Position numbers and translations under genes: made by a program. From Myxococcales bacterium (GTDB lineage Bacteria > Myxococcota > UBA727 > GCA-2721815), in the NCBI GenBank assembly GCA_002721815.1, contig PBLQ01000061.1:108905-172904 (forward strand): 64,000 bases of DNA, read 5' to 3'. The notes below the pieces were generated by a model. It had not been told where the DNA came from. It ran no database searches and was given only the letters and a program-made list of their open reading frames with translations. Numbering within the stretch: the first letter of the stretch is position 1; each line of letters starts with the position of its first letter. Of this stretch, positions 25,842 to 61,283 are shown piece by piece.

Positions 25842-26047
25842 GTTGTCAGATCCTCGCGTTCCCCCGATGACGCGCTAAACCCTTTGTCCTGGAAGTGCGC
25901 CATTCTACTGAGGTGTAGCCGATGGATGCAAATTATTGGGTTTTGGATTTTTTAGCCGGTAATGTTGTATAAATGGCCGTTTTTAAATATGATTTTCTAA
26001 ATAATCATCGGGGCATGACGCAAGTGCTGGAAAAAGAGATATCAAAA

Positions 26048-27574
26048 ATGGGAGATCCCCAGAAAAAACCAACTGAAATTCAGGCCCTAGCAGGCCGTCG
26101 TTGGAATATTTTGTGGGTTCTGAGCCTCTTTTTCACCGTTGGAATTACGCCGGCTCAGGCTGATGAAGGCCGTTACCAAGATTATGTTTTTGGCGCACGG
26201 GCCATTGCTTTGGGTGGGGCTTTCACCGCGATATCAAACGACGCTTCGGGTATCTTTTACAACCCAGCAGGCTTGGTAGATGTGAGTCGATCGAACCTCT
26301 CCATTGCGACCAGTTTTTACGGGATTGAATTAGGCGGTCAGGATTTTGCTGAGAACGCAGGCTTTTTAAGCTCAGGCAATTTCTCCGCCGCAGATCTAAT
26401 TATTCTTCCTTCGGCATCGGGGGGGGTCATTGGTTTAGGGCGACCCTTATCAAATGGTGCGTATCGCCATGCCGTTGCATTTGGAACGGCTGTACCCAAA
26501 TACACCTACCGGGTTTTTTCGACCCCTCTTTCAGAGCTGGCAACCGACGCCAATGGCATTATTACCCATTACCGCACAGCATTGGTGGATCGAACATTAC
26601 ATGCAGGTGGGGGTTATGCATACCGTCCTTCTCCCTGGTTACGGATGGGCGCTTCACTTCAGTACGTTTTAAGAACGTTAGATGCGACCGAAGGGTTGAA
26701 TGCTTACGAAGAATCGAACACCCGGTCTTTTTTGTCCTCTAACTCACATTTGCGTGCAACGAACCACAGTTTGCGATCTGCTTTGGGAATTAAACTTCAT
26801 CTGGGTTCGCGTTGGTTGGCCGGACTTTCTGTGACCACTCCATCGTTGGGCTTATACGAAAGCGTGTCATTAGAGTCTTATACGGTCACGGGGGCACCGA
26901 ACCTGCCACCCTCATCGCTTACACCGATTTTGTTTGAAAATGATGCTGTGATTGGCGGTGATGGGCTTGGGACGAACCCTGGTGTTGCCTCGGTGGGTAG
27001 CCAGCAACCGGGCTTTGTGCGGGCAGGGATGGCCTTTGTTCAGCCGTCTTCATTTACGTTGGCATTTGATCTCACAGGATACGCGGCCAACGAATATAAT
27101 TTGCTGCCCATCAATTTCATGGAAGGTGTTTATGACGATCGCAGTGTTCAAGAATTATTGAAGCGCATTCCGATATCTATGGCGGTTTCTCGTAAATCAG
27201 TGGTGAATCTCAACATGGGTTTTGAAAAATTATTTGGCGAAAACAAAAGTGCATCTTTCGGTTTCTTTACCGATTTTTCCTCTGCCCCTGAATTAACGGT
27301 AGATGAAAACGGCTTCTTGCCGGCCGGAGAGAATTCCAGGCTCGCGAATCTAGATATGTTGGGGATTGTTTTAAGCTACGGGCAGTTTTCGGAGCATACA
27401 TTAGGAAGATACGGGGTCATGATTTCTACTGGGAAAGGGAACGTGGTCTCATCCTCAGATCCCAGTGGATCATTGGGTGAGGGGTTGCCTCCCTTGGCTG
27501 TGGCCGAAGCCACGGAGACATTCGTTTACTTTTTCGTTTCTTCCAGTTTTCGATACAGCAAGGCGCGCCAGTAG
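26048..27574 (+). CDS. Outer-membrane beta-barrel protein, FadL/TodX/TbuX-like hydrophobic-compound transporter family.
   Basis: Signal peptide ending ...TPAQA. N-terminal GARAIALGGAFTAISNDASGIFYNPAGL hatch motif typical of the FadL family. Confidence 0.55.
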   Translation: MGDPQKKPTEIQALAGRRWNILWVLSLFFTVGITPAQADEGRYQDYVFGARAIALGGAFTAISNDASGIFYNPAGLVDVSRSNLSIATSFYGIELGGQDFAENAGFLSSGNFSAADLIILPSASGGVIGLGRPLSNGAYRHAVAFGTAVPKYTYRVFSTPLSELATDANGIITHYRTALVDRTLHAGGGYAYRPSPWLRMGASLQYVLRTLDATEGLNAYEESNTRSFLSSNSHLRATNHSLRSALGIKLHLGSRWLAGLSVTTPSLGLYESVSLESYTVTGAPNLPPSSLTPILFENDAVIGGDGLGTNPGVASVGSQQPGFVRAGMAFVQPSSFTLAFDLTGYAANEYNLLPINFMEGVYDDRSVQELLKRIPISMAVSRKSVVNLNMGFEKLFGENKSASFGFFTDFSSAPELTVDENGFLPAGENSRLANLDMLGIVLSYGQFSEHTLGRYGVMISTGKGNVVSSSDPSGSLGEGLPPLAVAEATETFVYFFVSSSFRYSKARQ

Positions 27575-27598: not shown

Positions 27599-28564
27599 TT
27601 ATTTTTTGAGGCGCTCTGCGTAATCCCAAATCAGGGATTCCAATAAAGAGTTTCCTTGACGATTTTCGAGTCCATTGATTTCGCGAATGCCGGTTGGGCT
27701 GGTCACATTCACTTCGGTAAGTCGGTCACCGATGACATCAAAACCAACAAAATGGAGACCTAGCTCTTCCAAGTGAGGCTTGAGGCGCGCAGCGATTTCT
27801 TTGTCCCGTTCATCCACTTGGGTGAGCGCGGCATTGCCACCCACATGTAAATTTGCGCGATGGTCAGTGGCACCCGGTAAACGCTTTAGGGCACCCAAAC
27901 ATTCTCCGCCCAAGAGCAAAACCCGTTTGTCACCCTTATTGATTTCTTTCACATACTCTTGGGCGATAATGGGCGTTGTTCCCCGTTGCGTGAGCACTTC
28001 AATGGCCGATTTAAGGTTTTTGTCTTCATGTGAAAAAACGAAAATGCCGTAGCCACCCGCCGCATCGATGGGTTTTAATACCACTTGTTCCATTTCCTTG
28101 GCTGCATTCAGGAGCTGCTTCGCATCTGCACTGACGATTGTGCGTGGATATAAATCACTGGCAAAATGAGCCCACAATTTTTCGTTGGCGATACGCATGG
28201 ATGTGGGATTGTTTAACACCAAGGTTTTCTTGGGGTCATGACGGTCCAAAATAAAGGTCGCCGTGATAAAGGCTTGGTTCACTGGTGGGTCTTTGCGCAT
28301 CCAGATGAAATCGAAGTCATCAAAGAAGAGTAAGGTTTCCTCCGCGAGCCATTCAAATTCGACTCGTGTTTGCGGGGTGGATTGGAAGGCCAAGGGTCTG
28401 CAGAGGGCGTAACCATTCGCGCCTTCTAAGCCCAGCTGATGGATGCCGCAGAAAAAACTCTCATAGCCTCGTTTTTGGCTCTCCCACATGAGGGCCAGAG
28501 TGGTGTCGCCCTGAGGATCCACATGGTCAAAAGGGTCCATGACATACAAAACGCGTTTGGACAT
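27599..28564 (-). CDS. gshB: Glutathione synthetase (prokaryotic ATP-grasp type).
   Basis: From the internal start MSKRVLYVMDP: MRKDPP, KPIDAAGG, GDKRVLL and VGFDVIGDRLTEVNVTSPTGIRE align closely with E. coli GshB. Confidence 0.9.
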   Translation of the reverse strand: MSKRVLYVMDPFDHVDPQGDTTLALMWESQKRGYESFFCGIHQLGLEGANGYALCRPLAFQSTPQTRVEFEWLAEETLLFFDDFDFIWMRKDPPVNQAFITATFILDRHDPKKTLVLNNPTSMRIANEKLWAHFASDLYPRTIVSADAKQLLNAAKEMEQVVLKPIDAAGGYGIFVFSHEDKNLKSAIEVLTQRGTTPIIAQEYVKEINKGDKRVLLLGGECLGALKRLPGATDHRANLHVGGNAALTQVDERDKEIAARLKPHLEELGLHFVGFDVIGDRLTEVNVTSPTGIREINGLENRQGNSLLESLIWDYAERLKK

Positions 28565-28662
28565 AACTATTTCCTTTGCCGCATTGAAAAGCTTCTTTAA
28601 GAAATCACCAAAAATGGTATGACACAAGCACCCTAACATTTAGTGGTGGTTAAAGGGATGTT

Positions 28663-30030
28663 ATGACGCAGCAAGAACCTCAAAAGCTCACTATGGAAAT
28701 GCTCATGGAATACCTGGCCTCTGGAGAGAAGCCTAAGGAGGCATTCCGCATTGGCACAGAGCATGAAAAATTTGGGTTTCATATCCCCACGCGAACACCT
28801 TTGGGGTTTGAAGGGCGTAAGGGCATTCAGAGCCTTTTAGAAGCCATTTTAAAAGATCCGCAAAGTGCGCCTCGCGGTGAACCCTGGAAGCCGCTGCGCG
28901 AAGCAGGTAAGCTGGTCGGTCTGGCGTCAGGAAGCATGTCTATTTCTTTAGAGCCCGCGGGCCAGTTAGAGCTGTCTGGGGCACCGTTGAAAACCATTCA
29001 TGAAACTGCGCACGAAGTGCGGCAACACTTTAGGTTGCTGCGGCGTTTTTGTGGGCCGAACAACGTTGGCTTTTTGGCTACTGGCTACCATCCTTTTTAC
29101 CATTGGTCCACGTTGCCCCAAATGCCAAAGGCCCGTTACGGCATCATGCGAAACTATATGCCCACAAAGGGCAGACGTGGTTTAGAAATGATGCATGCCA
29201 CCACGACCATTCAAGCGAACTTGGATTTCAGCTCTGAGCAAGAAATGGTAGAGATGTTCAAGCTTGCGCTGGCCATCACGCCGTTGGTGACGACTCTTTT
29301 TGCCAACAGCCCTTTTCTCGAGGGCAAAGCGAGCGGGGCATTGAGCGAGCGCTCTTTGGTTTGGATGGATACTGACCCTGACCGTTCCGGTTTCCCAAGT
29401 TGCGTGTTTGAGAAAGATTTTGGTTACGAAAAGTGGATGAACTGGGTGTTGGATGTCCCCATGTATTTTATTCACCGTGATGGTGAGTATCATGACGTGG
29501 CTGGGGCTTCATTTAGAGATTTTATGTCGAATGGTTTGTTGGGCCATGAAGCCACAATCATCGATTTTGAAAATCATTTATCCACCGTATTTCCTCATGT
29601 CCGGCTCAAGAAATTTTTGGAGGTGCGTTGCGCAGATGGGGGACCCATTAAATTTATTTCTGCTTTACCGGCATTGTGGAAGGGGTTGCTCTACGATGAG
29701 ACGGCCCGACAGCAGGCTTGGGCCCTGATGGACGACCCGTCGTTAGACGAGCTTAACTCTTTCCAAAAAGAGGTCGCCATCAAAGGCTTCGATGCAGTCT
29801 ATCGAGAGCAAAGCTGTCATGATTTGTGCGCTTCACTTGTTGATTTGGCAAGGGACGGCTTGGTTCGACAGGGCGCAAAAAACGATGATGGTGAAGATGA
29901 AACCATCTTCCTCAGAGCTGTTGAAGAGGTGGTACAGCGACGACAAACCCCCGCAGAGCGTCTTCTGTGGAAGCTCAACACTTTTTGGGATGGTGATTTG
30001 CAGCGATTGTGGAAATCACGCGTAGACTAG
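28663..30030 (+). CDS. gshA: Glutamate--cysteine ligase, plant/alphaproteobacterial type.
   Basis: 455 aa. GTEHEKFGF N-terminal motif of plant-type GCL. Divergent from gshB. Confidence 0.75.
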   Translation: MTQQEPQKLTMEMLMEYLASGEKPKEAFRIGTEHEKFGFHIPTRTPLGFEGRKGIQSLLEAILKDPQSAPRGEPWKPLREAGKLVGLASGSMSISLEPAGQLELSGAPLKTIHETAHEVRQHFRLLRRFCGPNNVGFLATGYHPFYHWSTLPQMPKARYGIMRNYMPTKGRRGLEMMHATTTIQANLDFSSEQEMVEMFKLALAITPLVTTLFANSPFLEGKASGALSERSLVWMDTDPDRSGFPSCVFEKDFGYEKWMNWVLDVPMYFIHRDGEYHDVAGASFRDFMSNGLLGHEATIIDFENHLSTVFPHVRLKKFLEVRCADGGPIKFISALPALWKGLLYDETARQQAWALMDDPSLDELNSFQKEVAIKGFDAVYREQSCHDLCASLVDLARDGLVRQGAKNDDGEDETIFLRAVEEVVQRRQTPAERLLWKLNTFWDGDLQRLWKSRVD

Positions 30031-30908
30031 CTTTTTTTACGCGAGATTTTTTTGGTTCGCTTCAGTTTCCATTCACCGAGCTTTCGCCGAATGGTGTGTT
30101 CGGACAGTCCCGTCGATCGTGCCAATTCTCGGTTGCTCATGTTGTCGAAGTTTTGCCGAATAAAGGTGTTTGGATCGTCGATGGGATTGGCCGGTTTGCT
30201 GGGAATCGGCATGTCTGCAATTTGCTTTGCACGCTTTTTTCGACGGTCCGTGGCGTTGCCTGCTTCCACCGGTTGGGCCTTGGCCGCTTTGGCTTTGGAT
30301 TTTGCTTTTTTAGCCTTGGATTTTTTGGCGGCTTTCTTTTCCGCCGGTGCGGAGGCCGTATCTTCGGCGAGGCTGCCAAGAAGGTTCTCAGCATTTTGAG
30401 CGGCCAGATCTTCATCGGACATGGGGGCCGCTGCCTGCGCATCCGCGGTGCCTTCAGCCACATTGGGATTCAGGCCAAGAGAGATGAGTTTGGTTAGAAT
30501 TTCACTCTCTTGGAGATCCAAACATCTGGCTAATTCTGTCACGGTTTTGGATTCGCCGAACTCTTTCAAGAATGCTTTGACATTGAGCTTACCGAATTCC
30601 CGCTCTCCACCCACGAGGTAGGAGATGTCCAAGAAGCCCGGGACTGAGCGTTTGACGCGTCCGTAATTCCGTTGTTCACGGTCAAACAATAATGAACCGA
30701 TTTCGTAAGTCATGGAGGGATCAACGGGGCGCGCGGCGGATCGTTTCACGTTTGCGAGCGCTTCTTCTAAGACCGTTCGTCGCCAAGCCAACGCTGTTTC
30801 GCTGGAGTCATTGGATGTGGAGGATTCATCTCCGGGGTTCTCGAAAATATTGGATGTCCCGTCGTTTACATTATCGAGTTCTTCCAGCTGTTTGCTGTTA
30901 AAAATCAA
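30027..30908 (-). CDS. Hypothetical DNA-binding protein with a histone-H1-like Lys/Ala-rich repeat and a C-terminal HTH (sigma-70 region-4-like).
   Basis: PAEKKAAKKSKAKKAKSKAKAAKAQ, and the C-terminal NMSNRELARSTGLSEHTIRRKL. Also an internal IF2_N-like segment TVTELARCLDLQESEILTKLISLGL. Confidence 0.5.
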   Translation of the reverse strand: MIFNSKQLEELDNVNDGTSNIFENPGDESSTSNDSSETALAWRRTVLEEALANVKRSAARPVDPSMTYEIGSLLFDREQRNYGRVKRSVPGFLDISYLVGGEREFGKLNVKAFLKEFGESKTVTELARCLDLQESEILTKLISLGLNPNVAEGTADAQAAAPMSDEDLAAQNAENLLGSLAEDTASAPAEKKAAKKSKAKKAKSKAKAAKAQPVEAGNATDRRKKRAKQIADMPIPSKPANPIDDPNTFIRQNFDNMSNRELARSTGLSEHTIRRKLGEWKLKRTKKISRKKS

Positions 30909-31230
30909 AGTGTCCTCCTAAGGCTCTCACTGGGTCCGATCGCTCCAATATATACGGGCCAGCAGCCCCATTTGGCGCGATTTTCTCGGTGCGAACAAGC
31001 GGGTAACAACCACGGCGATGCCCGTCAAGCAGTGCCAAAGGGTGAGATTTTGCTGGATTAGCCCGTTGACCTTTGGGAGAAGTCTGTTAGATCTTCTCAC
31101 GTTTCGGGCTTACCCAAGTCTGAACCCAAGTGGTGAATGGCCGCATCGGTGTGTCACCGTATTCGATGGTCGAATATGGGAACCCCGGCCCTCTGGCCCA
31201 CGGAGACAGCGTTCTCCCCGAAGGTACAAA

Positions 31231-31590
31231 ATGTCTTTTATCGAAAAAATCCAACAAAATTACTTACGTAGCGACCATCCTGAGTTTCGCGTGGGCGACT
31301 CTTTGCGTGTTCACTTTCGCATTAAAGAGGGCGAAAAAGAGCGTGTTCAGGTCTTCCAAGGCCTGTGTTTGGCCATGAGCCGCAACAGCCATGCTGGTAC
31401 CATCACCGTGCGAAAGATCTCTTTTGGTCAGGGCGTCGAGCGTATTTTCCCCATCTCATCTCCCCGAATCGAAAAGATTGAAGTGGTTCAAAGAGGCCGC
31501 GTGCGTCGTGCCAAGTTGTACTACCTCCGTGCGCTTCGCGGTAAGAAAGCGCGGATTAAAGAACGCCAAGACTGGGGAAAAAAGAAATAA
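31231..31590 (+). CDS. rplS: 50S ribosomal protein L19.
   Basis: MSFIEKIQQNYLRSDHPEFRVGDSLRVHF...GKKARIKE from an internal start in the longer ORF. Confidence 0.95.
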   Translation: MSFIEKIQQNYLRSDHPEFRVGDSLRVHFRIKEGEKERVQVFQGLCLAMSRNSHAGTITVRKISFGQGVERIFPISSPRIEKIEVVQRGRVRRAKLYYLRALRGKKARIKERQDWGKKK

Positions 31591-31627
31591 AAACAGGTGC
31601 TTAAATGTACTTGCCAAGCCGGTGAAG

Positions 31628-31661
31628 CCAGCCTTCCACCGGCTTTTTTTTGAGCAAAAGG
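31628..31661 (+). terminator. Rho-independent terminator after rplS.
   Basis: GCCGGTG ... CACCGGC stem followed by T8. Confidence 0.6.
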
Positions 31662-31675
31662 GTTGGGTTTGAATC

Positions 31676-32725
31676 GTGCAGCATGATCTTTTTTCTAAGT
31701 CGGAGCACAAATCCTATCCCTTCGCCGCGTGGTATATTGAAAATATCAGTAAAATCGCGGGGATAGATGAGGCAGGGCGCGGTCCATTGGCGGGACCCGT
31801 GGTGGCGGCTGCGGTGGTGCTCGATCCCAGCACCACTTTTTTGGCGGAGTTGGGTGATTCGAAAAAGCTGTCCGAGAAAAAGCGCGACGTCCTTTTTGAT
31901 CTGATTCACCAAGAAGCAATAACCGTGGGCGTTTCGGTTGTGAGCCCAGCTGAAATTGATCAATTGAACATTTTACAGGCCACTTTGTTGGGCATGAAAA
32001 ACGCTTTCGCGCGTGCGGAGCAAGAACGGGGCCGTAACATCTTGGGTGCCATCGTCGATGGTAACCAGAGAGTCATGCTTCCCCACAGGGTGGTTCAACA
32101 CACGCTGGTGGGTGGTGATGCCAAATGTCCGTCGGTGATGGCGGCATCGATTATTGCGAAGGTCACGCGAGACCGCCTCATGAAAAAAGCAGACATCGAT
32201 TACCCCGCATATGGGTTCGGAAAACACAAAGGGTACGGAACCAAAGCTCACATCTCGGCACTTCAGGAACATGGTCCTTGTGAATTACATCGAACAAGTT
32301 TTCGCCCCGTCAAGGATGCACTCGTCAAAGCGGAGGGCCGTCTTTCCGTGACCACGACTACCGAAGTGGGTCGAACGGGAGAAGACGAAGCTTCCAATTT
32401 TTTGAAAGCGCAGGGCGTCAGCATTCTCGAAAAAAATTATAAGATGGCACGGGGTGAAATCGATCTCATTGGCATGGATCAAAACACATTGTGTTTTGTC
32501 GAAGTCAAGACGCTTCGCAAAGCTGGATTCAAGCCAGCCCACCACCAAGTGAATGCACGGAAGCAAAAGCATCTCATTCAAGCTGCACAGTCCTACCTTC
32601 AGCGACACCAACGTTATCGTGATCATTCCTGTCGGTTTGACGTTATCTCTGTGGAAGGACCGGTTGAGCGTCCTCAGATCCAATGGCACCGAGCTGCTTT
32701 TGAGAGCCCGGTAAAAGGAATTTAA
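31676..32725 (+). CDS. rnhB: RNase HII fused to a C-terminal YraN/UPF0102-family endonuclease domain.
   Basis: N-terminus IAGIDEAGRGPLAGPVVAAAVVL...DSKKLS is RNase HII. C-terminus EASNFLKAQGVSILEKNYKMARGEIDLIGMDQNTLCFVEVKT is YraN-like. The 349-aa ORF is continuous. Confidence 0.75.
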   Translation: MQHDLFSKSEHKSYPFAAWYIENISKIAGIDEAGRGPLAGPVVAAAVVLDPSTTFLAELGDSKKLSEKKRDVLFDLIHQEAITVGVSVVSPAEIDQLNILQATLLGMKNAFARAEQERGRNILGAIVDGNQRVMLPHRVVQHTLVGGDAKCPSVMAASIIAKVTRDRLMKKADIDYPAYGFGKHKGYGTKAHISALQEHGPCELHRTSFRPVKDALVKAEGRLSVTTTTEVGRTGEDEASNFLKAQGVSILEKNYKMARGEIDLIGMDQNTLCFVEVKTLRKAGFKPAHHQVNARKQKHLIQAAQSYLQRHQRYRDHSCRFDVISVEGPVERPQIQWHRAAFESPVKGI

Positions 32726-33601
32726 ATGACGGGTCGTTTTTTTGTTGTGGCAACGCCCATCGGCAACTTAGGTGATCTCACTTTACGAGGCCAAGAGGTC
32801 CTGTCGGAAGCGGCCGTCATTTTGGCGGAAGATACGCGGCACAGTCAGAAACTGTTAAGAGGTTTGAGCATTGCATTTGAAGAGAAGCAGTTAATTTCTT
32901 GTCATCAGCACAATGAGCTGGATCGATTGAACCTGGTGCTGGATGCATTGGCGGAAGGCAAATGTGTTGCACTGGTTTCCGATGCTGGAACGCCCACCCT
33001 CAGTGACCCCGGTGGACGGCTGATTGAAAAATTAATCCACCAAGGCATAAAAATAGAGGTGTGTCCTGGTGCCAGTGCCTTGTTAGCTGCCTTAATGGGG
33101 GCGGGTTTAAACACCACGCGTTTTGCTTTTTTGGGATTTTTGCCGAAGAAGGGGAAAGAACGCGAAACACGAATCACTTCGGCGTTGGTCGCTGGTTTGT
33201 CGGTGGCATTTTACGAAGCACCAGAGCGCATCGAGAAAACGCTTCAAGATTTAAACCAATGGGTGGGGCCCATCAAAGTAGTGGTGGCCCGCGAACTCAC
33301 CAAAAAATTTGAAACGTTTCACCGGGGTGTATTGGGTTCAGAGCTCGCACCACCCCTGGTGCTCAAAGGTGAGATGGTGGTGGTCCTAGAAGCGCCCCAG
33401 GCGCCTGCCCAAGCCTGGTTGATGGGACTGAGCGAAGAGGCCCAACAAGAAGCCACGCGGGCACGTGTGACTGCTCTGGCTGCAGATTCGTCGCTGTCAC
33501 CAAAGGCTGCGGCGAAAGAATTGATGGTGGCCACGGGGTGGTCACGAAAAGAGGCCTATGATGCCATTGTCGCTGCGCGAAAAGACGAGGGCGAGACCTA
33601 G
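32726..33601 (+). CDS. rsmI: 16S rRNA (cytidine1402-2'-O)-methyltransferase RsmI, with a C-terminal extension.
   Basis: MTGRFFVVATPIGNLGDLTLRGQEVLSEAAVILAEDTRHSQKLL tetrapyrrole-methylase fold. Confidence 0.85.
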   Translation: MTGRFFVVATPIGNLGDLTLRGQEVLSEAAVILAEDTRHSQKLLRGLSIAFEEKQLISCHQHNELDRLNLVLDALAEGKCVALVSDAGTPTLSDPGGRLIEKLIHQGIKIEVCPGASALLAALMGAGLNTTRFAFLGFLPKKGKERETRITSALVAGLSVAFYEAPERIEKTLQDLNQWVGPIKVVVARELTKKFETFHRGVLGSELAPPLVLKGEMVVVLEAPQAPAQAWLMGLSEEAQQEATRARVTALAADSSLSPKAAAKELMVATGWSRKEAYDAIVAARKDEGET

Positions 33602-34854
33602 AAGGTTAAGCCACCGTGAATCATCAGTTCCCAGCCGAGAGATTCTTCAACATAGAGTCGACGGCCGGGTGTGTCTAAGATGGGATTGTACCAATGATTG
33701 ACTTCATTGCTGCTTAAGTCATCGAGGTCAACGTAACCATTACTGTTTTTGTCGGTACCAATGTCTTCGGCAGTAACCATGTGATCGGAGTCGTAGGTAA
33801 AGAGGAAGTCCACATCAAAATGGACAAAAGGCCCTGCTTTAAAATAAAAGCCGGCACCTGCCTCGGTGCGCATGAACTGCTCCACATAAGTGAGGTCGTT
33901 AAAAAGATCGGATATCTCAGAGTAATTGCGGCCTTCCGAAAAATATTCAGTTCCGCCGAACAGGTCGATGGCGAACTTTTGGTCGTAGGCTGGGTCTTCG
34001 TGCGCAATAATTTCAAGACCAGCTCGAACCCCGCCGTGATGCTGTCCGTGCAAGCCCCACAGGGCTTCGCTGGCAGGAATAGGCCCGGTGTAATGCATGA
34101 GGAAATGAGGATCCAAGAAGAGGAAACGTTTGGACATGGCCACCGCCAAACCGATGAGATGGGTCCCGTTGGCCACGTTACCCACGTCGGTGGAGTTGGC
34201 GGCTTCGGTCCACGGGTCCATGTAGGGGAAAAAGGGGGCCGTATAGGACAGATCGAGCGTGGTGGTCACTGAACTTGGTTGACGTTCGTTGTTACTGGGG
34301 GACCATCGGAACCCAAAGGTGGGATTATTGGGACCCGCTCTTTCGGATGAAAATGCACCCGTTGCATTATCGAAACGCCAATCATTATAGGCTTGTCCTT
34401 CGGGAATCCCAAAGTTGCTGGTGGGCCAGCCGTCAACCAAGGTTGGCGAAGCGTTGTTTTGGTCTTGGGCCAAGGACGAATTAGAAGCATTGGTCCCGTT
34501 TGCGTAGATACTGTTTTGATTCCAAGACAACACAATGGGAATTTTGAGATAAAGTGCCAAATCTCTAAACAATCCCAATTCGAGACGGGGTTGAATCATG
34601 TGTTGTGTGCTTTCGTAATTCAGTTCTTTCACTCGCATCACACGGTTCACTTTGTTGGTAGTGTCTTGCTGATAGTTTTCTCGGGTAATGCTCGCGGTGT
34701 GGGTGCGCAAATCGTATTGCATTTCGATGTTAGCATCGAATGGATCGTTATCGTCCATGGCATCGGCCACTTCAGTTATTCGTGCTGAATGTCCAGGGGC
34801 GCACCAAACGGCTGCCATGAGAGCGAAACCCAAAGCAAAAGGCTTAAACCGCAT
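33598..34854 (-). CDS. Putative outer-membrane beta-barrel protein (hypothetical).
   Basis: Signal peptide MRFKPFALGFALMAAVWCAPGHSA, Asn/Gly/Tyr-rich, C-terminal ...IHGGLTF (terminal Phe OMP signature). GGAG RBS. Confidence 0.5.
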   Translation of the reverse strand: MRFKPFALGFALMAAVWCAPGHSARITEVADAMDDNDPFDANIEMQYDLRTHTASITRENYQQDTTNKVNRVMRVKELNYESTQHMIQPRLELGLFRDLALYLKIPIVLSWNQNSIYANGTNASNSSLAQDQNNASPTLVDGWPTSNFGIPEGQAYNDWRFDNATGAFSSERAGPNNPTFGFRWSPSNNERQPSSVTTTLDLSYTAPFFPYMDPWTEAANSTDVGNVANGTHLIGLAVAMSKRFLFLDPHFLMHYTGPIPASEALWGLHGQHHGGVRAGLEIIAHEDPAYDQKFAIDLFGGTEYFSEGRNYSEISDLFNDLTYVEQFMRTEAGAGFYFKAGPFVHFDVDFLFTYDSDHMVTAEDIGTDKNSNGYVDLDDLSSNEVNHWYNPILDTPGRRLYVEESLGWELMIHGGLTF

Positions 34855-34876
34855 TTTCAACTCCAACCCGTTAAAA

Positions 34877-36389
34877 TTAATCAGTTTCGGCCTCATTTTG
34901 CCCTTTTTTTGTTTCGCTGGTCAAGTTTGCGTCCACCTCACCTTTGTCTCGCAGGCCCATTTCCTTCATTTTGAGCTGTAAGCTCTTTCGCGATATTTTC
35001 AATCTTTTCGCCGCTTGGGTAACATTTCCGGTGGTTTCTTCCAATGCGCGTGCGATCAGGTCTTTTTCGATTTCTACGGTGGCCTGTCGAACGATGTCCT
35101 TCATGGAGGCATCTTTTTCGAGTCCTTCTTGAACCGCCGCTTGTACTTGTGTGACCATTTGATGGGCATTTTCGTCTTCTTTACTCATTTTTGCTACAAA
35201 ATCAGGCGGAAGATCGCCAGGTTGCAAAACGGCACCCTCTGCAAAGAGCAAGGTTCTTTCAATGGCATTTTCAAGCTCCCGAATGTTCCCTGGCCAAGGG
35301 TAGACTTTTAACATTTCGAGTACGGCCAGGGATGCTTTTTGCACCGTTTTTTGCAAGCGTTCGTTGTAAATGCTGATGAAGTGGCTCACCAATTCATCGA
35401 TGTCCTCTGGTCGATCGCGCAAAGGGGGCAGGTGCATGGGCACCACATTCAAACGATAGAAGAGATCTTCTCGGAAGGCGCCTTCTTCGATGGCTTGAGA
35501 GAGGTCTTTGTTGGTGGAGGCAATCAATCGGACATTGACATCAATGGTCTTGATGCCTCCGACCCGCTCGAACGAGGCGTTTTGCAGGACCCTCAAGAGT
35601 TTGACTTGGAGCTCAATGGGCATATCGCCAATTTCATCCAAAAATAGTGTGCCCTCATGGGCCAGTTCAAATCGGCCGGGCTTGGCTCCCACGGCACCCG
35701 TGAATGCACCTTTGTCATATCCAAACAGCTCCGACTCAAGGAGGTTTTCTGGAATGGCCCCACAGTTGATGCTGATAAAGGGTTTGTTTTTACGGGAAGA
35801 ACCCTCGTGCAAGGCTTTGGCCACCACTTCTTTACCCGTTCCGGACTCGCCGGTGATGAGAACTGTTGAAGGGGTATCGGCCACCTTTTCGATCATTTGA
35901 TGAATTTGGTCCATGGCGCTGGACTGTCCAATTAAGGACGTCACAAAACCGTCGATATTGCCAGCACGAACACGTGAGCGCGCGTGTTGCCGTTGGCCTA
36001 AGGCTTTTTGCACCACCGTAAGGATTTCTTCTCGCTCGTAAGGTTTGCTCAGAAAATCAAAAGCACCCTTTTTGAGCGCCTGGACGGCCAAGTCCACCGT
36101 TCCGTGAGCGGTGAGCATGATCACCGGTAAATCAGCGTAGGTCAGTACCACTTGTTCCAGTAACGTCATGCCATTCATTTCGGGCATGCGAATGTCGCAA
36201 ACCAAAACATCAAAAGCGTTGTTGCCTTGTGCTTCGGCGGCCGCCAATTGTGCGAGGGCATCGGGCCCGCTTTTGGCCGTTTCGATGTTATACCCGGCAC
36301 GTTTGAGCGTTGCCTTTAAAACCTTCCGTAACGATGCTTCATCATCAACAATGAGGATTCTGCCGGTTTGTTTTTTCTGCTGCAGACAT
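34877..36389 (-). CDS. Sigma-54-dependent response regulator (NtrC family: receiver, AAA+, Fis-HTH). The N-terminal ATG is out of frame by 1 at an A6 run.
   Basis: GESGTGKE Walker A, GAFTGA, ELFGY, FRELFYRLNV and a C-terminal HTH. The receiver RILIVDDE...VLVCDIRMP lies upstream of the table's TTG start. Confidence 0.7.
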
Positions 36390-61196: not shown

Positions 61197-61283
61197 GCGG
61201 CGGTGGCGGAACTGGTAGACGCGCTACGTTGAGGTCGTAGTGGCCAATTGGCCATGGGAGTTCGAGTCTCCCTCGCCGCACCA
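61197..61283 (+). tRNA. tRNA-Leu (anticodon GAG), type II with long variable arm, CCA encoded.
   Basis: Acceptor GCGGCGG/TCGCCGC. Anticodon stem CTACG/CGTAG with loop TTGAGGT. Variable-arm hairpin GGCCAATTGGCC. T-arm GGGAG-TTCGAGT-CTCCC. Discriminator A plus CCA. Confidence 0.9.

What the first reader, a model, noticed from the sequence alone, without database searches (positions are those of the whole stretch)
30027..30908. Histone-H1-like Lys/Ala repeat protein with a sigma-region-4-like HTH, divergent from rplS
A chimeric architecture: acidic Ser-rich N-terminus, an IF2_N-like helix pair, a PAEKKAAKKSKAKKAKSKAKAAKAQ tract typical of eukaryotic H1 / bacterial Hc1 nucleoid proteins, then a C-terminal HTH resembling sigma-70 region 4 (SNRELARSTGLSEHTIRRKL). 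It could be a nucleoid-associated protein or a sigma-factor-mimicking regulator. Its 3' end overlaps gshA convergently.
Basis: partly seen in the sequence, partly recalled or inferred. Interest (0 to 1): 0.5.

Follow-up and report, generated by a model that had tools for sequence, protein, structure and literature searches.

The report
Uncharacterised Myxococcota DNA-tethering adaptor protein
This is a real, conserved gene for an unnamed protein family found only in uncultured Myxococcota; the "histone-H1-like" stretch is the basic half of a flexible acidic-then-basic tether joining a small folded N-terminal module to a near-invariant C-terminal DNA-binding helix-turn-helix, so it looks more like a tethered transcription cofactor than a histone-like packaging protein.

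Summary
A 293-aa ORF lies at 30027..30908 (-), with a TTG start, an AGGAGG ribosome-binding site, rplS divergent upstream, and a 4-nt convergent overlap with gshA. No curated family (Pfam, NCBIfam, PHROGs, PADLOC) or solved structure explains it.

It belongs to a small family of about 240 proteins. Only 60 cluster representatives were found among 1.84 billion proteins, and all named sources are uncultured Myxococcota or "Deltaproteobacteria" MAGs.

The family plan is:
- an invariant N-terminal peptide (KQLEEL) and an acidic disordered stretch;
- a long helix and an SH3/Tudor/KOW-type beta-barrel;
- an acidic three-helix unit, HTH-A, which distant members have lost;
- a disordered linker of 45-188 aa with non-conserved sequence, whose first third is acidic (97% of members) and last third basic (100%);
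- a near-invariant basic HTH-B (TGLSEHTIRRKLGEW) and a basic tail.

Both HTH units match a GcrA/Myb-type repeat profile, and HTH-B superposes on the GcrA DNA-binding domain, which is itself sigma-region-4-like. The K/A tract sits in the variable linker, and the average family member is net acidic, so this is not an H1/Hc1 homologue.

Best reading, which is inferred and not shown: a stand-alone CarD/GcrA-style tethered cofactor that holds a protein partner with its N-module and DNA with its C-terminal end. Interest is moderate.

The parts
30027..30908 (-). Whole gene (293 codons plus TAG stop), stand-alone transcription unit
   Evidence: ORF list. 241 homologues, including a 100% identical 'hypothetical protein CMH56_15460 [Myxococcales bacterium]'. 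Start position validated against 23 loci.
30914..30919 (-). Shine-Dalgarno AGGAGG, 5 nt before the TTG start
   Evidence: Sequence read directly.
30864..30908 (-). aa 1-15: conserved N-terminal peptide/short helix (MIFNSKQLEELD; S5 K6 Q7 L8 invariant)
   Evidence: Alignments A1/A2. Mean pairwise identity 0.81, and 0.56 even against the 14 most distant members. Helix 5-15 in both AF2 models.
30810..30863 (-). aa 16-33: acidic, Ser/Asp/Glu-rich disordered segment
   Evidence: pLDDT 40-64. Family mean net charge -7.2.
30729..30809 (-). aa 34-60: long amphipathic helix (A39, W42, R43, E49, K55, R56, R60 invariant)
   Evidence: AF2 helix 34-59. Invariant columns.
30585..30728 (-). aa 61-108: four-stranded SH3/Tudor/KOW-type small beta-barrel (Y68, R84, V85, S88, P90, G91, L93, G100, R103, E104, G106 invariant)
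30465..30584 (-). aa 109-148: HTH-A, an acidic three-helix unit of GcrA/Myb/IF2_N-like type; lost in distant members
   Evidence: AF2 helices 110-117, 123-130, 134-143. hhalign to HTH-B: probability 89%. hhalign to the GcrA/Myb-type repeat profile: 97.5%. Family mean net charge -3.6. Identity to distant members 0.16.
30348..30464 (-). aa 149-187: acidic block of the disordered linker (net -8)
   Evidence: pLDDT about 45-55. The first third of the linker is acidic in 97% of 117 homologues.
30213..30347 (-). aa 188-232: basic block of the linker (net +13), with the K/A tract PAEKKAAKKSKAKKAKSKAKAAKAQ at 30273..30347
   Evidence: The last third of the linker is basic in 100% of homologues, and the acidic block precedes the basic block in 99%. 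The tract is unique in the window. Only a weak hexamer micro-repeat is seen at DNA level.
30057..30188 (-). aa 241-284: HTH-B, a near-invariant basic three-helix HTH (NPIDDPN..I....SNRELA..TGLSEHTIRRKLGEW.LKR); the presumed DNA-binding domain
30030..30056 (-). aa 285-293: basic C-terminal tail (TKKISRKKS)
   Evidence: Sequence read directly. Family tails are short and basic, with mean charge +1.8.
30909..31230 (.). 322-bp divergent intergenic region shared with rplS (promoters presumed here)
   Evidence: No consensus sigma-70 promoter, no Rfam family and no conserved operator was found.

Best explanation
The gene encodes a member of an uncharacterised protein family restricted to uncultured Myxococcota. 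I read it as a modular, charge-bipolar DNA-tethering adaptor.

**Shown here**
- The C-terminal end is the most conserved part. It consists of a basic K/A(/P)-rich disordered block, a near-invariant basic three-helix HTH of the GcrA-DBD/sigma-4-like class, and a basic tail.
- The N-terminal half is acidic. It holds an invariant N-terminal peptide, an acidic disordered stretch, a long helix, an SH3/Tudor/KOW-type barrel and a second, acidic HTH-like unit.
- The two halves are joined by a tether of variable length whose acidic-then-basic charge order is conserved although its sequence is not.

**Inferred**
- HTH-B reads a DNA element that is conserved across the lineage, and the lysine-rich block adds non-specific electrostatic affinity. 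In this protein the 'H1-like' tract is an affinity and reach device, not a chromatin-compaction domain.
- The acidic N-module does not bind DNA. It holds a conserved protein partner.
- The partner I consider most likely is RNA polymerase. That would make this a stand-alone global transcription cofactor that works like myxobacterial CarD (Tudor-like RNAP-beta binder, then acidic segment, then basic HMGA- or H1-like DNA-binding tail) and like Caulobacter GcrA (HTH DNA-binding domain, long unstructured linker, RNAP-holoenzyme-binding domain).
- The acidic block may fold back on the basic block and HTH-B to auto-inhibit DNA binding until the partner is engaged.
For: **Real, conserved gene**
- 241 homologues.
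- Synteny is kept down to about 40% identity.

**Architecture**
- AF2 models.
- Conservation peaks at the two ends (N-peptide 0.81, HTH-B 0.80), with the linker at 0.28.
- Linker charge order is conserved in 97-100% of 117 members.

**HTH class**
- HTH-A and HTH-B match a repeat profile from proteins that pass Pfam's threshold for GcrA and Myb_DNA-binding, at 97.5% and 97.9% probability; controls score below 1%.
- HTH-B is basic (+2.4) and HTH-A is acidic (-3.6).

**Barrel**

**Stand-alone gene**
- It is always monocistronic, with different neighbours in different clades (rplS, fadBA, HU). This fits a global factor better than a local one.

**Precedents**
- CarD has a Tudor-like RNAP-beta-binding domain plus an unfolded C-terminal domain with an acidic segment followed by basic repeats (PMC4374960).
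- The Anaeromyxobacter CarD analogue carries an H1-like domain that can replace the HMGA-like one with no loss of function (PMC2919716).
- GcrA is a DNA-binding domain, a 60-residue unstructured linker and a sigma-interacting domain, and it acts as a monomer (PMC5887438).
Against: - No experiment and no interaction prediction links the N-module to RNA polymerase.
- Foldseek found nothing at E <= 1e-3.
- No member reaches Pfam's threshold for CarD_CdnL_TRCF, GcrA, KOW or any sigma region.
- No conserved DNA motif was found that could be HTH-B's target.
- DNA binding by HTH-B is inferred from fold class and charge only.
- The domain order is reversed relative to GcrA, and CarD has no C-terminal HTH.
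Confidence: 0.4

Rival explanations
1. It is a nucleoid-associated architectural protein. The K/A/P-rich tract and HTH-B bind DNA with little specificity and compact or bridge the chromosome, as in H1, chlamydial Hc1/Hc2 and Pseudomonas AlgP.
For: - The lysine/alanine(/proline)-rich tract is present in every member, and it is long and very H1-like in distant members such as P0139 and P0133.
- The gene is stand-alone with no operon partner.
- In one lineage it is divergent from an HU-family gene.
- Two HTH-like units on a flexible tether could in principle bridge DNA.
Against: - Family members are on average net acidic (mean -4.1, range -31 to +45), and the N-terminal half is strongly acidic.
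- The basic block is the poorly conserved part, while the folded modules and a 15-residue N-terminal peptide are near-invariant. That points to specific partners.
- HTH-A is acidic and dispensable.
- There is no linker-histone, Hc1 or HU-type domain.
- An invariant recognition helix argues for a specific target.
Confidence: 0.2
2. It is a nucleoid tether for a cargo other than RNA polymerase. The C-terminal end anchors to DNA while the N-module binds some other conserved cellular structure, as H1-like tails do in AlgP (polyphosphate granules). The PhaF/PhaM (PHA granule) analogy is from my own knowledge.
For: - It has the same bipolar design as the best explanation.
- SH3/Tudor-type barrels and short invariant N-terminal peptides are generic protein-docking devices.
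- AlgP is an H1-like protein that organises polyphosphate granules (PMC9239181, listed).
Against: - No cargo-related gene is a conserved neighbour.
- A sequence-invariant HTH is unnecessary for a purely non-specific anchor.
Confidence: 0.15
3. It is a local transcription regulator of the divergently transcribed neighbour (the rplS-rnhB-rsmI operon here) and/or of itself.
For: - The gene is always divergent from its upstream neighbour, with an intergenic region of about 175-340 bp.
- It carries an HTH domain.
Against: - The divergent neighbour changes (rplS, fadB-fadA, HU) while the HTH-B recognition helix stays invariant.
- No shared operator-like motif lies upstream. Only an ordinary TTGACA/TACAAC promoter is shared by one subclade.
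- Nothing notable lies in the window's intergenic region.
Confidence: 0.1
4. It is a sigma-factor fragment or sigma mimic that occupies the sigma-4 site on core RNA polymerase or on the -35 element.
For: - Weak Sigma70_r4_2 matches (14.8 bits in the window protein; 14 of 22 members at E < 0.01).
- The GcrA-DBD class is structurally sigma-4-like (PMC5887438).
Against: - The scores are below Pfam's gathering threshold, and generic AsnC/IclR/Xre HTH models score as well or better.
- No sigma region 2 or 3 is present.
- The unit has three helices, not the four helices of region 4.1-4.2.
Confidence: 0.05

Closest known systems
Myxobacterial CarD (CarD_CdnL_TRCF family, PF02559), including the Anaeromyxobacter CarD analogue with an H1-like C-terminal domain
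   Same: - It comes from the same phylum.
- It has a folded N-terminal module with a small Tudor-like beta-barrel, followed by an intrinsically disordered region with an acidic segment and then a basic DNA-binding segment. In one CarD analogue that segment is H1-like and is interchangeable with the HMGA-like one (PMC4374960; PMC2919716).
- It is a stand-alone global factor.
   Different: - There is no sequence-level relationship: no PF02559 hit in any of 22 members.
- The target's barrel is preceded by an invariant peptide, an acidic stretch and a long helix.
- The target ends in a near-invariant HTH, which CarD lacks.
- It has no AT-hooks.
Caulobacter GcrA (PF07750)
   Same: - Both HTH units match a GcrA/Myb-type repeat profile.
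- The overall logic is shared: a small HTH joined by a long unstructured, partly basic linker to a partner-binding module, plus a terminal basic patch (PMC5887438).
   Different: - The domain order is reversed.
- No GcrA sigma-interacting domain is detected.
- PF07750 is not hit by the target.
- The linker has a conserved acidic-then-basic pattern.
- The family is confined to Myxococcota MAGs, not Alphaproteobacteria.
Eukaryotic linker histone H1 / chlamydial Hc1-Hc2 / Pseudomonas AlgP (H1-like lysine-rich proteins)
   Same: A lysine/alanine(/proline)-rich, low-complexity, disordered basic tract that varies in length.
   Different: - There is no winged-helix globular H1 domain and no Hc1 family match.
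- In the window protein the basic block is 45 aa, only about 15% of the protein.
- The family is on average net acidic.
- The tract is the least conserved region.
UvrD/PcrA C-terminal Tudor domain (RNA polymerase beta-lobe binder)
   Different: - Sequence identity is 10-21%.
- There is no sequence-profile link and no helicase context.

Membership tests
Linker histone H1 / Hc1 nucleoid proteins | Family-specific domain: winged-helix globular domain (Pfam Linker_histone) or the Hc1 family domain | tested here: not met
   Neither family appears in Pfam or NCBIfam scans of the window protein at E <= 10, or of 22 members at E <= 0.01. AF2 shows no winged helix next to the basic tract.
Linker histone H1 / Hc1 nucleoid proteins | Lys/Ala/Pro-rich basic tail | tested here: met
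   aa 188-232 has net charge +13. The pooled linker composition is A 26%, K 14%, P 14%. The last third of the linker is basic in 100% of 117 members. The tract is unique in the window.
Linker histone H1 / Hc1 nucleoid proteins | Strongly basic protein overall | tested here: not met
   Family mean net charge is -4.1 (range -31 to +45). The window protein is +8, with an acidic N-terminal half.
Sigma-70 family (region 4; FliA/RpoD fragment) | Region 4 profile match above the curated threshold | tested here: not met
   Sigma70_r4_2 scores 14.8 bits against a cutoff of 25.7. TIGR02937 scores 13.3 against 42.9. Generic AsnC, IclR and Xre HTH models score equally well or better across members.
Sigma-70 family (region 4; FliA/RpoD fragment) | Presence of region 2 (core binding and -10 recognition) | tested here: not met
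   There is no Sigma70_r2 hit. The N-terminal half folds as helix, beta-barrel and three-helix unit.
GcrA (PF07750) | Three-helix DNA-binding domain of GcrA type | tested here: inconclusive
   [not shown]
GcrA (PF07750) | C-terminal sigma-70 region-2-interacting domain | tested here: not met
   No such domain is detected, and the domain order is reversed: the HTH is C-terminal. GcrA architecture is taken from PMC5887438.
CarD_CdnL_TRCF (PF02559) | Sequence-profile match to the RNAP-interacting Tudor-like domain | tested here: not met
   PF02559 is not hit in the window protein (E <= 10) or in 22 members (E <= 0.01). The PDB profile search with the N-module found no CarD, CdnL or TRCF chain.
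CarD_CdnL_TRCF (PF02559) | Tudor-like beta-barrel fold | tested here: inconclusive
   [not shown]
CarD_CdnL_TRCF (PF02559) | Binding to the RNA polymerase beta subunit | not testable with these tools
   No complex prediction or experiment was available.
IF2_N (PF04760) | Profile match above threshold for the helix unit at aa 109-148 | tested here: not met
   It is not hit in the window protein. Only 3 of 22 members match at E < 0.01 (best 3.1e-4).

The most novel reading that the evidence does not exclude
A previously unrecognised Myxococcota-specific global transcription cofactor has independently converged on the CarD/GcrA design. Its Tudor-like N-module docks on RNA polymerase. A flexible acidic-then-H1-like tether lets a near-invariant GcrA/sigma-4-like HTH reach a DNA element (possibly a promoter-proximal or modified-base motif) that is conserved across these uncultured lineages. 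The acidic block acts as an intramolecular DNA mimic that gates binding.
Probability: 0.25. Interest if true: 0.6.

Novelty: new variant of a known kind. Interest (0 to 1): 0.4.

Why it matters
If the tethered-cofactor reading is right, this would be a third independent bacterial example, after CarD and GcrA, of a regulator that rides on the transcription machinery and reaches DNA through a disordered, eukaryote-like basic tether. It would occur in Myxococcota lineages that have no cultured representative.

It also gives a clean natural case for studying H1-like low-complexity tracts. Here such a tract evolves freely in length and sequence under a conserved charge pattern, between two almost invariant folded ends.

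In practical terms, it corrects a tempting mis-annotation ("histone-like" or "sigma-like") for a family of about 240 unnamed proteins. If the protein is instead an ordinary local regulator or a minor nucleoid protein, the finding is of modest interest.

Tried and rejected
- **Curated libraries:** Pfam, NCBIfam, PHROGs and PADLOC gave only sub-threshold generic HTH matches.
- **PDB sequence and profile searches:** the full protein, the N-module profile and the C-terminal profile found nothing credible.
- **Foldseek against the PDB:** no hit at E <= 1e-3.
- **AFDB Foldseek:** the library was unavailable.
- **HTH-B in other architectures:** the search returned only fragments of the same family.
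- **Conserved operator upstream of the gene:** only a normal sigma-70-like promoter shared by one subclade. There is no consensus promoter, convincing terminator, repeat or Rfam element in the window's intergenic region.
- **Conserved operon partner:** none. Neighbours differ by clade.
- **K/A tract as a DNA tandem repeat, as in Hc2:** only a 3.8-copy hexamer.
- **Cultured-organism orthologue:** the genome scan with the invariant TIRRKLGEW pattern returned only MAGs.
- **Packing of the N-terminal peptide in the model:** coordinates are not exposed.
- **The 2009 CarD H1-like paper:** it is not held, so it is cited through PMC2919716.
- **Rejected readings:** a sigma-factor fragment, an H1/Hc1 homologue, and a chimera or gene-fusion artefact.
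Full report
**1. Observation**

It runs 30027..30908 on the minus strand and encodes 293 aa from a TTG start. An AGGAGG sits 5 nt upstream at 30914..30919. The TTG aligns with the ATG that opens the conserved peptide M-I-F-N-S-K-Q-L-E-E-L-E in 23 homologous loci, so the start is right.

Neighbouring genes were confirmed with NCBIfam:
- gshB, 27599..28567 (-);
- gshA, plant-type glutamate-cysteine ligase, 28663..30030 (+);
- rplS, 31231..31590 (+);
- an RNase HII-YraN fusion, 31676..32725 (+);
- rsmI, 32726..33601 (+).

The gene is divergent from rplS across 322 bp. It overlaps gshA convergently by 4 nt through a CTAG that carries both stop codons. The K/A tract (aa 188-212) is the only such site among 31,324 sliding 25-aa windows of the window's long reading frames, where 6e-4 would be expected by chance.

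**2. No curated family explains it**

- Pfam and NCBIfam give only sub-threshold generic HTH matches at aa 253-280. These are AsnC-type at E 0.0076 and Sigma70_r4_2 at 14.8 bits against a cutoff of 25.7.
- Scanning 22 diverse members individually changes nothing. AsnC-type matches 18 of 22, Sigma70_r4_2 14 of 22, IclR 8 of 22 and IF2_N 3 of 22, all weak.
- PDB sequence and profile searches are empty.
- PHROGs and PADLOC are empty.

**3. The family**

The word-indexed search found 241 homologues. One is a 100% identical 'hypothetical protein CMH56_15460 [Myxococcales bacterium]', and nearly all the rest are unnamed.

An exhaustive HMMER profile search with the N-terminal 148 aa found only 60 cluster representatives at E <= 1e-3 among 1.84 billion proteins. 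A scan of 185,579 species-representative genomes with the invariant peptide TIRRKLGEW returned 30 loci. All are MAGs, almost all labelled Myxococcota, Myxococcales or Deltaproteobacteria, and none is a cultured isolate. The family is therefore small and lineage-restricted.

**4. Anatomy**

This section draws on the alignments and the AF2 models.

| Residues | Element | Key evidence |
|---|---|---|
| 1-15 | Short helix with S5, K6, Q7, L8 invariant | Mean pairwise identity 0.81 |
| 16-33 | Acidic disordered stretch | Family mean charge -7.2 |
| 34-59 | Long helix with W42, R43, E49, K55, R56, R60 invariant | AF2 helix |
| 61-108 | Four-stranded small beta-barrel | pLDDT >90; identity 0.65 |
| 109-148 | Three-helix unit, HTH-A | pLDDT >90; identity 0.49; only 0.16 to the 14 most distant members, several of which match the N-terminal profile only up to the barrel (e.g. 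P0133, P0139) |
| 149-240 | Disordered linker | pLDDT about 45; identity 0.28 |
| 241-284 | Three-helix unit, HTH-B | pLDDT >90; identity 0.80, and 0.70 to distant members; TGLSEHTIRRKLGEW at least 95% conserved |
| 285-293 | Short basic tail | Family mean charge +1.8 |

**5. The 'H1-like' tract in context**

Across 117 homologues the linker is 45-188 aa long. It is rich in Ala, Lys, Pro and Glu, and its total charge ranges from -22 to +15. The charge is ordered, however:
- the first third is acidic in 97% of members;
- the last third is basic in 100%;
- the most acidic 25-aa window precedes the most basic one in 99%.

In the window protein, aa 149-187 has net charge -8 and aa 188-232 has +13. 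In distant members the basic block is longer and strikingly H1-like (P0139, P0133).

The tract is therefore a conserved feature in composition and position but not in sequence. It always sits directly N-terminal to HTH-B. At the DNA level it is not a tandem-repeat array.

**6. Fold assignments**

*The two HTH units are related.*
- HTH-A and HTH-B align to each other at hhalign probability 89% (E 2e-6, 39 columns).
- The weak tail of the exhaustive search contained proteins made of 4-6 repeats of a W-x-x-E-E...S..EIA..LGRS..AV..R...LGL unit (P0172, P0174, P0175). P0172 and P0175 pass Pfam's thresholds for GcrA, and P0175 also passes for Myb_DNA-binding.
- A profile of those units matches HTH-A at 97.5% and HTH-B at 97.9% probability. 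The barrel and N-terminal controls score below 1%.
- HTH-B was not used to find those proteins, so its match is independent.

*Charge.* HTH-A is acidic (family mean -3.6, third helix -2.5). HTH-B is basic (+2.4) and has basic flanks. Only HTH-B looks suited to binding DNA.

**7. Genomic context**

In one clade the arrangement rplS <- | -> target -> | <- gshA is conserved down to about 40% identity. That clade includes the window, L001, L002, L006-L008, L014, L030, L031, L034 and L036. A more divergent, AT-richer clade has fadA <- fadB <- | -> target. One lineage has an HU-family gene as the divergent neighbour, and another has a CDF transporter downstream.

In every locus for which gene calls were inspected the gene is monocistronic, divergent from its upstream neighbour and convergent with its downstream neighbour. 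No shared operator-like motif was found upstream, only a TTGACA...GCTACAAC promoter in one subclade. The window's own intergenic region holds no consensus promoter, convincing terminator or Rfam element.

**8. Interpretation**

*Shown.* The protein is charge-bipolar and modular. Its two most conserved elements lie at opposite ends of a flexible tether that varies in length but keeps its charge pattern. The C-terminal end combines a lysine-rich block, a basic GcrA/sigma-4-class HTH and a basic tail.

*Inferred.* The C-terminal end binds DNA, with the HTH giving specificity and the lysine-rich block giving affinity and reach. The acidic N-module binds a conserved protein partner.

*Precedents.*
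- CarD, from the same phylum, has a Tudor-like RNAP-beta-binding domain followed by an unfolded domain with an acidic segment and then basic DNA-binding repeats (PMC4374960). In the Anaeromyxobacter CarD analogue the basic part is H1-like and functionally interchangeable with the HMGA-like one (PMC2919716).
- GcrA is a small HTH joined by an unstructured linker of about 60 residues to an RNAP-holoenzyme-binding domain, and acts as a monomer whose linker sets its reach (PMC5887438).

I therefore favour a CarD/GcrA-style tethered transcription cofactor, with confidence 0.4. Within that reading, DNA binding by the C-terminal end is the more secure step. RNAP as the partner is the least secure step.

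*Rivals.*
- An H1/Hc1-like nucleoid protein (0.2). Against it: the average member is net acidic, the basic block is poorly conserved, and the folded modules are near-invariant.
- A nucleoid tether for another cargo (0.15).
- A local regulator of the divergent neighbour (0.1). Against it: the neighbours change while the recognition helix stays invariant.
- A sigma fragment or mimic (0.05).

**9. Membership**

The protein fails the sequence-level tests for H1/Hc1, the sigma-70 family, GcrA, CarD_CdnL_TRCF and IF2_N. It shares fold classes with GcrA-DBD/sigma-4 (HTH-B) and with Tudor/KOW barrels. It is best filed as an unnamed family that combines known small folds in a new arrangement.

**10. 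Verdict**

In novelty terms it is a new variant of a known kind, namely modular DNA-tethered regulators with disordered acidic/basic tails. Interest is moderate at 0.4. The family is uncharacterised and has an appealing design, but its function is inferred only from architecture and it is confined to uncultured lineages.

Noticed in passing
window 31676..32725 (+): RNase HII and the YraN (UPF0102) nuclease-like protein are encoded as one 349-aa ORF here: RNase HII at aa 20-216 and YraN at aa 227-343. In related loci (L031, L034, L036) they are two separate adjacent genes. This could be a true fusion or a sequencing/frameshift artefact.
   Followed up: partly
L031 5021-7069; L034 3161-5218; L036 3546-5366 (compare window 31590..31676): Relatives carry a 606-685-aa gene with no Pfam hit between rplS and rnhB. 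The window lacks it entirely, and rplS is followed by rnhB after 85 bp.
   Followed up: no
L031 10803-11708; L034 8320-9165; L036 8830-9618 (compare window 28568..28662): Relatives have an EI24-domain (PF07264) gene between gshA and gshB. In the window, gshB and gshA are directly divergent with no gene between them.
   Followed up: no
window 33598..34896 (-): A 432-aa ORF with a signal-peptide-like N-terminus has no NCBIfam match. It is conserved at about 40% identity in L007 and L008 at the same position next to rsmI.
   Followed up: no
window 25973..27574 (+): A 533-aa putative outer-membrane protein has only a weak N-terminal PorV/PorQ-family (type IX secretion) match, at 31 bits against a cutoff of 90.
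   Followed up: no
L035 5428-5700 (-): In one lineage (P0089) the family member is divergent from a 90-aa HU/IHF-type (Bac_DNA_binding) gene instead of rplS or fadB.
   Followed up: no
L003 (contig end) and L022 (contig start), same MAG binchicken_co16_62: The N-terminal half of the gene lies at the end of one contig and the C-terminal HTH at the start of another. The low-complexity linker apparently breaks metagenome assemblies, so database counts and lengths for this family include fragments.
   Followed up: partly
P0172, P0174, P0175 (metagenomic proteins, not in the window): These proteins consist of 4-9 tandem GcrA/Myb-like three-helix units (W..EE..L...S..EIA..LGRS..AV..R...LGL) and have no other domain. 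They appear to be an uncharacterised multi-HTH architecture.
   Followed up: partly
window 61197..61280 (+): A single tRNA gene is the only Rfam match at gathering threshold in the 64-kb window.
   Followed up: no
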